This document shows positions 54,489 through 56,977 of a DNA stretch of 64,000 nt, piece after piece (positions within the stretch are counted from its first letter, which is position 1; each line of letters starts with the position of its first letter). The stretch comes from Eledone cirrhosa (Eukaryota): positions 52,514,001-52,578,000 of the forward strand of contig OZ024745.1 in the NCBI GenBank assembly GCA_964016885.1, read 5' to 3'. The notes under the pieces were generated by a model that worked only from the letters and a program-made list of their open reading frames with translations, was not told where the DNA came from and did not search any database. The position numbers and the translations under genes are program-made.

Positions 54489-56977
54489 TAGTTAACGGTT
54501 ATGACGAGGCCTAGAAAATAAGGGTACTATTTGGCGGTCAATGGCGGCGGCGTGTCGGGTCTGGAGCCTGGCATAGCCCCGTGACGAAAGAGCGTTCCGA
54601 GTAATTTCCTTTATCTGATATGTTCCTTCGTTATATTTTGAATTATCTGATGATGTCACCGGATTCATACTGAACCCGGTCATTGAAATGATCATAGTAA
54701 AATAAAACTTTCAAGGATGTACACCAGAACATGCCTCCTGTTATTTTGTAATAATTAACTCCGTACTCGCACCACCAACTACACAAACGAAGACGGGTGG
54801 TTGCATTACGTTGAGTGCTTTCCATAACATTACATCGTGGCTAACCACACAGAATGACCAGTTCTATCCAGTGGTGAACCAACAAACCCAAATAAATATT
54901 GTTCCAGAAATGTCGAGCGCTTTCAGATGTAATAATAAACAGCGGCACTGACTCCAGTGTACAGCTATCGCCACCATGGACGAACTAAACTTACACCTTT
55001 CGAATTTTGGATGCTGTGAACTTTGTCTACCACCCACCTAGTCCACCGCTGCTCCCATGTCGGGAATATCCAGAATACGACAGACCTCACTGATTCCTAT
55101 AAATATTTCTGCATATTTTAATATTGCGTGTATTGTATTGGCTGATTTCTCTATCCTATACCTCAGGGCATTTGTGATCCAAGGTGAATAATAAGACTCG
55201 AACATACACCAGGTATTACCTGATACCACTACTTCTCTTCCATCCTCTATATCTATATGTATAAACCTGTATTATCCGAATGCCCCTCGATCTTTCTTAT
55301 ATTTCTCCTGTGTTTATATTTTCCCCTGTGCTTATATTTCCCCTGCGTTTTGATTTCCTAGATATGTTCTCTCTACTTCCGTTTTACTCCATGCATCACC
55401 ACCTTAGTTATGACTGCATTTTTTCATTTATGTTTTATTTTTTTCATTGTTTTATTTATTTACGCATTCGGAGTTTTACTTACTTATTTGTTTATGGTGC
55501 ATTTTGCGTATTATTCCTTTCACTTATGTATGTACTTACTCGCTCTATCCCAGTCCATAACTACCACTGTGACCTACATGTACCCTTATATCTGTTTCCT
55601 TATTCATTCCCCATACCCACCCTAGAACCACACTAATAAAACCTGGACCAAATGGGGGCGTGACATAGGCTATTAGCGCATTTCATCGCGTTTTACCACT
55701 CTCAACCTCACACCACGGATGTGAATAAATATTAATTGTCTGGTAATACACGATGATACGACGGATGTGGCGGATTTCAGGACTGCGCACCGCCCAATTG
55801 GGCGTTTTATACTTCCTTGAGTGCTTGGAAAAATAAATGAAATTAATCGGAACGCTCCTTCGTCACGGGGCTATGCCGGGCTCCAGACCCGACACGCCGC
55901 CGCCATTGTCCGCCAATTAGTACCCTTATTTTCTAGGCCTAGTCATAACCGTTAACTGTATCATGCCTCTTCCTACTAGCACTTAACTATAACCCCACAC
56001 TGTGTGATATAAAAGCAACCGCTTGGTATATACGATGGTCAGCCGGCTCCGCGTTGGCACAACCGATAGCCTAACACAGCTACATTCCTGGAGTGCTCGG
56101 AAAAACTAATTTCTATTTTTTCGCTAGACGATATTACTCGGAACAGCTGGCGGAAGGATAGCGCAGGACCCCTAGTCGTCGCTGGTTAGTGACCGCTAGA
56201 ACGGGCATATTTTTACTGTATATACCACCCTGACAATTTATGGTGATTATATATATATCACACCTAAACTTCTTCATAAAAGCCTCTTCATGTTAATTGT
56301 CACCTCTCTATATTAATTACACACACTCTCTATTTCTCACTCTCTCTGTCAATCTCTCTGTTTTTCATTATCCTACACTCTCTCTCTCTCTGTTTTACTC
56401 TCTCTGTCACTTTCTATCTCTCTTTCATTCACACACACTCTCTCCCTTTTTAATCTTTATGTCTGTTTGTCCTTGAAAAAACATATTTGGCGGCAATATC
56501 GAGCATGCATGACCAGCCTGATTAACGCGTGACCTCAGCGTTGGCACTTCCATCTGACGGTTGGTAAATTAACGGATTACGCCCCCACACTATAAGGTAG
56601 TCTCTTGACCCACTTATCAGCACTCGAGGGCGGACGATGCAGATACAAGTCGCTAAATACCGGCCGCCCTCTTGTCTCAGATTTTAACACCAAGGATTTT
56701 TATCTGATATATTCCTTCGTTATATTTTGAATTACCTGATGCTGTCACCGGATTCATACTGAACCCGGACATTGAAATGATCATAGTAAAATAAACCTTT
56801 CAAGGATTTACACCAGAACATGCCTCCTGTTATTTTGTAATAATTAACTCCTTACTTGCAGCACCAACTACACAAACGAAGACGGTGGGTTGCAGTTCGT
56901 TGAGTGATTTCCAAAACATTACATCGTGGCTGACCACACAGAATGACCAGTCCTATCCAGTGGTGAACCAATAAACC
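54489..56977 (+). mobile_element. Non-autonomous HHR element: ~280-bp direct repeats around 1.8 kb non-coding DNA, with a 120-bp inverted 5' piece
   Basis: 54610-54888 repeats at 56699-56977. 54489-54608 is the inverse of 55839-55957. HHRs at 54643-54700 and 56732-56789. Confidence 0.88.

What the first reader, a model, noticed from the sequence alone, without database searches (positions are those of the whole stretch)
54489..56977. Large (2089-nt) ORF-less element with hammerhead-bearing terminal repeats
Seen: the same layout as the autonomous PLE (HHR repeat, body, HHR repeat, TA tract, inverted 5' piece), but the body has no RT/EN similarity that I can see. It contains GC-rich structured blocks (55760-56210, 56490-56690) and only a short ATG-led relic (MDELNLHLSN, 54977). 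Inference: an unusually long LTR-retrozyme-like passenger RNA that may carry its own promoter or cargo.
Basis: partly seen in the sequence, partly recalled or inferred. Interest (0 to 1): 0.7.

Follow-up and report, generated by a model that had tools for sequence, protein, structure and literature searches.

The report
Gene-less Penelope retrotransposon passenger with hammerheads
A 2.1-kb stretch with a hammerhead self-cutting-RNA motif at each end and no detectable gene is likely a passenger copied into the genome by the enzyme of a Penelope-type jumping gene, and its two apparent copying start points share a short motif that may be that enzyme's start signal.

Summary
The layout is real: 279-bp direct repeats 2089 nt apart (93.5% identical), each with a type I hammerhead (3' core mutated, A9C), a (TA)n tract and an inverted 5' piece. 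No RT/EN trace was found, while neighbouring Penelope-like elements (PLEs) were detected easily. It fails the LTR-retrozyme tests (type I, no PBS/PPT/TSD, 42% GC, monomer no more folded than shuffles). The repeats are PLE pseudo-LTRs. Best reading (0.55): an ORF-less passenger of Hydra-clade PLEs, mobilised in trans. Its hammerhead subtype, end geometry and ATG relic parallel the Hydra PLE at 6732-12886. New here: the GC-rich 'blocks' are a diverged tandem duplicate (0 of 2000 shuffles). The inverted arm starts mid-body at a site carrying the same GAGTGC...AGC[AG]CT motif pair as the true ends, so probably a second RT start. That motif was defined post hoc and its helix is not stable in context. 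Copy number, transcription and a circle are untested. A single dead PLE that lost its ORF after insertion remains possible (0.25). Non-coding DNA between pseudo-LTRs has precedent in Adineta. New variant of a known kind; interest 0.45.

The parts
54489..54614 (-). Inverted arm: reverse-complement copy of 55833-55958; product of a likely second reverse-transcription start in mid-body
   Evidence: 8 of 126 differences; BLAST 133 nt at 92.5%
54610..54614 (.). 5-nt microhomology (TTTAT) shared by the inverted arm and the 5' pseudo-LTR
54610..54888 (+). 5' pseudo-LTR (279 nt), copy of the unit's 3' end
54638..54716 (+). Type I hammerhead, intact core at 54647, palindromic helix III ATGATCAT, predicted cut after 54696; U-U at the base of helix II
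54813..54922 (+). Motif pair GAGTGCT (54813) and AGCGCT (54916, +28) flanking the main element end 54888; same pair flanks the end of PLE A
54889..56977 (+). One full 2089-nt unit without RT/EN ORF (42% GC)
54976..55005 (+). ATG-led relic at the position of a Hydra-PLE start codon (88 nt after the end; 81 in PLE A); similarity ends after about nine codons
   Evidence: (rank 8 of 1658 ATG 9-mers)
55270..55640 (+). G-poor pyrimidine tract 1, composition like the 3' regions of PLEs A and C
   Evidence: alignment to A not above shuffles (212 of 300)
55698..55985 (+). Module 1 of a diverged tandem duplicate; holds GAGTGCT (55819), the inverted-arm start (55958) and AGCACT (55978, +20)
55986..56247 (+). 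Module 2 of the duplicate (165 of 245 aligned columns identical to module 1); holds TATAAAAG at 56008; ends at a short TA run (56248-56258)
56248..56480 (+). Short TA run and CT-rich tract 2
56480..56698 (+). GC 49% block before the 3' repeat, with an acceptor-like site ending at 56680
56699..56977 (+). 3' pseudo-LTR; 56977 is the likely first reverse-transcription start
56727..56805 (+). Second type I hammerhead, core at 56736 with A9C; predicted cut after 56785
56978..57093 (.). (TA)n target tract, 116 nt

Best explanation
This is a 2089-nt ORF-less unit framed by hammerhead-bearing pseudo-LTRs, likely a non-autonomous passenger that the reverse transcriptase/GIY-YIG protein of a Hydra-clade Penelope-like element copied in trans into a (TA)n tract. 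Shown: the geometry, the hammerhead motifs, the missing RT/EN, the internal duplicate and the motif pair. Inferred: the protein nicked the left edge of the TA tract and began cDNA synthesis at 56977, inside the RNA, 192 nt past the hammerhead cut site. It copied 2368 nt (1.13 units), crossing the cut site twice, so the template was an uncut multimer or a ligated circle; the extra 0.13 unit is the 5' repeat. The other target strand primed a second cDNA at 55958, a second start site in module 1, and the two cDNAs were joined through TTTAT. The unit likely descends from a Hydra PLE that kept its ribozyme, start signal and first codons, lost the ORF and duplicated a terminal module. The hammerheads would work only as a dimer. 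This copy is likely dead: about 3% decay per repeat, A9C in the 3' core, no tail at the 3' end.
For: Pseudo-LTRs, adjacent inverted copy, hammerhead and microsatellite target match the PLE description in PMC8557442 and PLE A in this window. A has the RW and DKT motifs of the Hydra clade. The element and A share a hammerhead subtype: GAAA, 8-nt palindrome (ATGATCAT vs ATGCGCAT), AUA site, C-pyrimidine mismatch at pair 4 of helix II followed by A-U, C-G. End-to-ATG distance 88 vs 81 nt; GAGCGCT-to-ATG 61 vs 59. Anchored alignments to A were matched by 47 of 11000 and 1 of 1978 null windows. The ATG 9-mer ranks 8 of 1658 on a matrix from 15 of 22 PLE N-termini (7 lacked the anchor), above the real starts of C (10) and A (20). 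No ORF remnant on either side although decay is only about 3% and a 47-residue EN scrap elsewhere scores 8e-11. Modules 1 and 2: score 72.5 vs 33.0+-5.5, 0 of 2000 shuffles, best of 90 tile pairs; far more diverged than the repeats, so older than this insertion. AG[CT][AG]CT lies at +23 (A end), +28 (element end), +20 (mid-body start), +28 (D end); background 38 in 55,684 nt. The strict motif pair covers 0.07% of positions, 4 loci, 3 of them these starts. Internal RT initiation without homology, cutting and extension of both strands, and uncut RNA as the main template were shown in vitro for a Poseidon PLE (PMC11167929).
Against: Only one copy seen: none elsewhere in the window, and no eukaryote genome collection was available, so mobility of the ORF-less form is not shown. 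Similarity to A is weak when scanned without an anchor: at least 14 unrelated loci beat A for the tail, and five match or beat it for hammerhead-to-ATG; the post-hammerhead region alone is at shuffle level (160 of 300). The motif pair was defined after seeing these sites. Its helix appears only in tightly cut windows; pairing probability is 0.02 or less in wider context. It is absent within 60 nt after A's alternative start and from the three B/F tails, and D's upstream word is not kept in three other D copies. One of the 4 strict loci (33764) shows no PLE features. A 567-nt retrozyme in the window also has a mid-unit inverted arm, at a TA-like site, so mid-unit arms need no special signal. 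Full-length PLE proteins (over 378 aa) were not candidates, and the profile covers one clade.
Confidence: 0.55

Rival explanations
1. A single dead copy of an autonomous PLE with a long 3' region, whose ORF was deleted in the genome after insertion; the ORF-less form never moved.
For: ATG relic at the expected place and PLE-like pyrimidine tracts. PLE D keeps about 1.3 kb between stop and end, also mixing GC-rich and pyrimidine stretches. No second copy in the window. The old module duplication and the motif pair could equally lie in a parent's 3' region.
Against: The deletion would have to start within about 30 nt of the ATG and end beyond the stop codon, leaving about 1.7 kb of 3' region against 0.9 kb (A) and 1.3 kb (D); no RT or EN residue is left on either side.
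Confidence: 0.25
2. Host DNA (for example a gene promoter with first exon and intron start) captured between PLE pseudo-LTRs and moved in trans, as in Adineta vaga.
For: PMC3846280 reports non-coding DNA between pseudo-LTRs and 0.9-1.5 kb captured spacers. 55740-56230 holds one GC box, one CCGCCAT (0 in the other 53 kb), three CCAAT[CT] (0.42 expected) and TATAAAAG with an initiator-like A at +33 (motif labels recalled).
Against: The region is a diverged tandem duplicate whose conserved islands are other words; it carries the motif pair of PLE ends exactly where the inverted arm starts; motifs were chosen after inspection and only 12 overlapping GC-matched windows were available as control.
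Confidence: 0.12
3. A long retrozyme proper: an abundant 2.09-kb circular RNA cut and ligated by its hammerheads, with LTR-like repeats.
For: Two hammerheads 2089 nt apart; cDNA crossed the cut site twice, which a circle explains; this copy has no 3' tail, which a circle would restore.
Against: Type I not III, no PBS, PPT or TSD (definitions). Circular monomer z=+0.3, 17 of 26 shuffles as stable, whereas the 567-nt retrozyme nearby is about 3.5 SD below 20 shuffles. Minimal PLE hammerheads cut poorly in vitro and uncut RNA was the main template for PAc.
Confidence: 0.05
4. The body carries a decayed cargo gene (plus frame from 54976 or minus frame 55271-54867).
For: Stop-poor frames in 54706-55360 (about 3% of 500 shuffles for 2 or 4 stops); perfect GCCACCATGG context, the only one on the plus strand of the window.
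Against: Not significant over the whole unit (0.27-0.79). No homologue among 37 and 3 candidates. The 3 hits of the minus frame are tandem-repeat proteins with best single stretches of 4-11 bits. Atlas recognition 2155, below the 2300 typical of real families.
Confidence: 0.03

Closest known systems
Hydra-clade Penelope-like elements (PMC8557442; element A at 6732-12886 of this window)
   Same: Pseudo-LTRs, type I hammerhead, adjacent inverted copy, (TA)n target, similar end-to-ATG geometry and hammerhead subtype.
   Different: No RT/GIY-YIG ORF; no alignable sequence beyond motifs; inverted arm starts mid-body; internal duplicated module.
Pseudo-LTR-bounded non-coding inserts and Pen1 spacers of Adineta vaga (PMC3846280)
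   Same: Unrelated non-coding DNA between pseudo-LTRs; a mid-body piece inverted upstream of the 5' repeat is described there too.
   Different: Those have TSDs and belong to another PLE lineage; here the filler looks PLE-derived and holds an apparent second start site.
Animal non-LTR retrozymes (PMC7229834; bioRxiv 10.64898/2026.07.22.740005)
   Same: Type I hammerhead per unit, non-coding, GC under 50%, likely PLE-dependent.
Plant LTR retrozymes (PMC4918200)
   Same: Two hammerhead-bearing repeats of about 300 nt around a non-coding body.
   Different: Type III ribozyme, PBS, PPT, 4-bp TSD, 600-1000 nt RNA, Gypsy partner; none is met here.
Non-autonomous Chlamys elements such as MRC1 (PMC8557442)
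   Same: ORF-less PLE partner whose pseudo-LTRs were first mistaken for LTRs.
   Different: Algal, mostly without hammerheads, and alignable to autonomous families at the 3' end.

Membership tests
Penelope-like element, non-autonomous | Partial tandem giving pseudo-LTRs | tested here: met
   279-nt repeats, period 2089, 5' edge at an inversion junction
Penelope-like element, non-autonomous | Type I hammerhead in the pseudo-LTR | tested here: met
   Cores at 54647 and 56736 (A9C); 0 of 2000 shuffles; activity not tested
Penelope-like element, non-autonomous | Inverted truncated copy adjacent to the 5' end | tested here: met
   54489-54614 vs 55833-55958
Penelope-like element, non-autonomous | Microsatellite or AT-rich target, TSD often not discernible | tested here: met
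   116-nt TA tract, AT-rich left flank, no TSD
Penelope-like element, non-autonomous | Sequence similarity to an autonomous family at the ends | tested here: inconclusive
   Hammerhead subtype and anchored similarity to A; not significant unanchored
Penelope-like element, non-autonomous | Several independent insertions of the ORF-less form | not testable with these tools
   No other copy in 64 kb; no eukaryote genome collection
Autonomous Hydra-clade PLE | Single ORF with RWK, DKT, RT and C-terminal GIY-YIG | tested here: not met
   Profile E=7.2 vs 8e-11 or better for Hydra-like controls; tblastn best E=0.05
Plant LTR retrozyme | Type III hammerhead | tested here: not met
   Helix I is the open end; type I
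Plant LTR retrozyme | PBS after the 5' repeat and PPT before the 3' repeat | tested here: not met
   By inspection of both junctions: no TGG-led site, no purine tract
Plant LTR retrozyme | 4-bp target-site duplication | tested here: not met
   Flanks compared
Plant LTR retrozyme | 600-1000 nt RNA, GC above 55% | tested here: not met
   2089 nt, 42% GC
Animal non-LTR retrozyme | Tandem units each with a complete type I hammerhead | tested here: inconclusive
   1.13 units; one core intact, one A9C
Animal non-LTR retrozyme | Short unit (about 170-400 nt; up to 972 reported) | tested here: not met
   2089 nt; ranges
Animal non-LTR retrozyme | Highly self-paired monomer | tested here: not met
   z=+0.3 over 26 shuffles
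Animal non-LTR retrozyme | Expressed as linear and circular RNA | not testable with these tools
   No RNA data

The most novel reading that the evidence does not exclude
A multi-copy family of 2.1-kb ORF-less passengers, twice the longest animal retrozyme reported, built from serial Hydra-PLE start modules and travelling as hammerhead-cut circles; its two start sites expose the cis signal (GAGUGC upstream, AGC[AG]CU 20-28 nt downstream of the start) that tells Hydra-clade reverse transcriptase where to begin inside an RNA.
Probability: 0.22. Interest if true: 0.7.

Novelty: new variant of a known kind. Interest (0 to 1): 0.45.

Why it matters
How PLE reverse transcriptase chooses its internal start, and what the hammerhead is for, are open questions; the one in vitro study I read covers a Poseidon element only. 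An element with two apparent start sites gives a natural control and a short candidate motif that can be mutated. If the unit is a family, kilobase hammerhead passengers fill the gap between short retrozymes and full PLEs, and surveys capped at 1000-nt periods would have missed them. If it is a single deleted copy, it is an ordinary relic.

Tried and rejected
Rfam: 0 hits at gathering score in 64 kb; only chance-level hits at E up to 10 on the element and on three small blocks; Rfam also misses the real hammerheads, so this negative is weak. A resemblance of 56170-56205 to the 5S rRNA control region (recalled) got no Rfam support and is dropped. No tRNA. No further hammerhead in the body with one core mismatch allowed (the descriptor also missed several real hammerheads in the window). 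Pfam on 6 of 6 frames found nothing, but only 1 of 9 PLE control peptides hit RVT_1, so it is uninformative. Protein searches of the plus frame and minus frame gave nothing real; the plus-frame relic was not examined by the language-model search and full-length proteins were not candidates. No match in phages or plasmids or, for one 22-mer, in bacterial and archaeal genomes. The bacterial promoter scan is irrelevant to a eukaryote. A closing helix around the start sites, seen, was rejected as shown because it vanishes in wider context. The second-ranked internal repeat (z 3.8) is CT microsatellite. An intron 56243-56680 is only a guess from weak splice-like sites.

Full report
Setting. The window is AT-rich eukaryotic DNA full of microsatellites and Penelope-like elements (PLEs). 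I call the ORF-bearing ones A (6732-12886), B (19250-22390), C (38290-41100) and D (48950-51410), and a short family F (44705-45290, 47365-47680). A shows the RW and DKT motifs given for the Hydra clade. The only named protein among 22 relatives of A's RT is from Argonauta hians, 42% identical, and a frequent short repeat looks to me like an octopod SINE (recalled, untested). An octopod host is plausible but not established.

Observation. The direct repeats are 54610-54888 and 56699-56977, 2089 nt apart, 18 of 279 positions different; the inverted piece 54489-54614 copies 55833-55958 with 8 of 126 differences. The similar divergence fits one insertion event followed by about 3% decay per copy. 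A 116-nt TA tract follows. There is no TSD; joining the flanks gives an AT-rich run into the TA tract. Each repeat holds a type I hammerhead motif: core, 31-nt helix II, GAAA, the palindrome ATGATCAT and an AUA site, with predicted cuts after 54696 and 56785. A strict descriptor hit 0 of 2000 shuffles of the repeat. The 3' core has A9C and both copies have U-U at the base of helix II. A palindromic helix III points to dimer-only activity (PMC4209133). In a dimer the mutated core would serve the 5' cut, so this copy is unlikely to release a monomer (inference).

No coding trace. Ten PLE peptides of the window gave at best E=0.05 on the element. A profile of 22 PLE proteins gave E=7.2, against 1e-174 (A), 4e-107 (C), 2e-68 (D), 8e-11 (a 47-residue scrap) and 2e-6 (B). 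The plus frame 54706-55353 had no homologue among 37 candidates of 118-378 aa and 3 of 30-117 aa; longer proteins were not searched. The minus frame 55310-54867 gave 3 hits in 1.8 billion proteins, all tandem-repeat proteins whose best single stretch scores 4-11 bits, and low recognition in the language-model search. Pfam was uninformative. The stop-poor frames reach about 3% against shuffles of 54706-55360 but not over the unit.

Relation to Hydra PLEs. The element and A share the hammerhead subtype, including a C-pyrimidine mismatch at pair 4 of helix II and a palindrome changed on both sides (ATGCGCAT vs ATGATCAT). After the element end both have GAGCGCT (+27, +22), then an ATG 61 and 59 nt further on; that word occurs three times in the window. 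The nine codons from 54976 rank 8 of 1658 on a matrix from 15 of 22 PLE N-termini (7 dropped for lacking the anchor), ahead of C and A themselves. Anchored alignments to A were matched by 47 of 11000 and 1 of 1978 null windows. Against this, unanchored scans put at least 14 unrelated loci above A for the tail and five level with or above it for the longer stretch, the post-hammerhead part alone is at shuffle level, and nhmmer finds no relative of any of seven segments outside the element while finding five copies of A's repeat as control. So the partner is likely a Hydra-type family, not A itself.

The body. Two G-poor tracts (55270-55640, 56230-56480) have the composition of the 3' regions of A and C. 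The 'GC-rich structured blocks' are 50% GC and fold no better than shuffles on the plus strand. What they do show is a diverged tandem duplicate, 55698-55985 and 55986-56247: local score 72.5 against 33.0+-5.5, 0 of 2000 shuffles, best of 90 tile pairs, 165 of 245 aligned columns identical, in short islands. This is much older than the insertion. Module 2 ends at a short TA run. A promoter-like cluster is present (labels recalled), but the TATA word is only in module 2 and the CCAAT and CCGCCAT words only in module 1, so they are not the conserved part.

The mid-body start. In A, B, D and F the inverted arm begins at or near the element's 3' end. Here it begins 1 kb away, at 55958, with one shared base at the junction and 5 of 8 partial matches beyond it. 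That site has AGCACT at +20 and GAGTGCT 139 nt upstream. The main end has AGCGCT at +28 and GAGTGCT 75 nt upstream; A's end has AGCGCT at +23 and GAGTGC 61 nt upstream; D's end has AGTACT at +28. The strict pair covers 0.07% of unmasked positions, at 4 loci, 3 of them these starts and one without PLE features; a looser pattern gives 14 hits including D's end. The two words are complementary and close a helix in tightly cut folds, but pairing probability is 0.02 or less in wider context, so the structure is not shown. The motif is missing after A's alternative start and in B and F tails, D's upstream word varies between copies, and the pattern was defined after the fact. A 567-nt retrozyme nearby also has a mid-unit arm, at a TA-like site. 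I take 55958 as a probable, not proven, second start.

Mechanism. By analogy with the Poseidon protein PAc, which cuts AT-rich DNA, extends both strands and starts inside the RNA without homology (PMC11167929), one cDNA started at 56977 and ran 2368 nt to 54610, and a second started at 55958 and ran about 126 nt; they were joined through TTTAT. The first crossed the hammerhead cut site twice, so the template was an uncut multimer or a circle. These steps are inferred. The circle is not required, and the circular monomer folds like its shuffles (z=+0.3, 26 shuffles), unlike the 567-nt unit (about 3.5 SD below 20 shuffles).

Comparison. LTR-retrozyme membership fails on ribozyme type, PBS, PPT, TSD, size and GC (definitions from PMC4918200 and PMC7229834). 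Animal retrozymes are 51-972 bp in a survey capped at period 1000. Non-coding DNA between pseudo-LTRs, 0.9-1.5 kb spacers and a mid-body inverted piece are described for Adineta (PMC3846280), and ORF-less Chlamys elements were once taken for LTR elements. The architecture is therefore of a known kind; the length, the duplicated module and the apparent second start are the variant part. Eight literature searches listed no paper whose title or abstract start describes such an element in cephalopods; I did not search for the motif itself, the library lacks most subscription papers, and Repbase or Dfam were not available.

What I read. PMC8557442: abstract, passages and section 11. bioRxiv 10.64898/2026.07.22.740005: parts 1-3 of 5. 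PMC11167929 and PMC4209133: parts 1-2 of 4 each (21, 25). PMC7229834, PMC6431247, PMC3846280, PMC4918200, PMC10886601: passages only. No supplements were read; the Hydra consensus and hammerhead files of PMC8557442 and the retrozyme tables of the preprint could hold close relatives.

Verdict. Observation confirmed, interpretation partly supported. Passenger of a Hydra-type PLE 0.55, relic deleted after insertion 0.25, host capture 0.12, retrozyme proper 0.05, cargo gene 0.03. Copy number decides between the first two and could not be tested here. New variant of a known kind; interest 0.45.

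Noticed in passing
window 17925-19150, minus strand: A 567-nt unit in about 2.1 tandem copies (97% identical) between TA tracts, with intact type I hammerhead cores at 18640 and 18073, a palindromic helix III, a short mid-unit inverted arm and a fold more stable than shuffles: a typical animal non-LTR retrozyme.
   Followed up: partly
window 6732-12886: Near-complete Hydra-type PLE (A): ORF from 9437 with one stop and one frameshift, 596-nt pseudo-LTRs, 2-kb inverted arm; a further fragment at 17153-17450 reuses the same two ends.
   Followed up: partly
window 19250-22390 (minus), 44705-45290, 47365-47680: PLE B of another clade and short B-like termini (F) sharing the end AAGTATAACAATA, with tails of about 40-55 nt and small hammerhead-like motifs.
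   Followed up: partly
window 48950-51410, 855-1678, 17670-17815, 38067-38193, 46369-46475: PLE family D with a hammerhead-like fold about 20 nt before its end, a roughly 80-nt tail holding AGTACT at +28, and about 1.3 kb of 3' region.
   Followed up: partly
window 38290-41100: Decayed Hydra-type PLE (C) whose hammerhead-like motif lies in the inverted arm (38378, minus); a related end at 48643-48834.
   Followed up: no
window 34140-36838: A 2.7-kb palindrome (96% arm identity, 5-nt centre) with no Pfam match in six frames of one arm and no PLE profile match; origin unexplained, possibly an assembly or inversion product.
   Followed up: partly
window 58029-58418, 62153-62345, 47104-47227, 27085-27193, 29999-30411, 25911-26096: A frequent short interspersed repeat, resembling octopod SINEs by recall only; absent from the element.
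   Followed up: no
window 55791-55804: Perfect 14-nt palindrome CGCCCAATTGGGCG followed by TTTT, present in module 1 only.
   Followed up: no
window 56047-56060 and 56534-56547; 56091 and 56619: GCGTTGGCAC shared by module 2 and the block before the 3' repeat (0 copies elsewhere in the window), and a GAGTGCT/AGCACTC complementary pair 528 nt apart; might mark a third decayed module.
   Followed up: partly
window 53151-53276 and 53619-53744: A 126-nt direct repeat (93%) just upstream of the element, unexplained.
   Followed up: no
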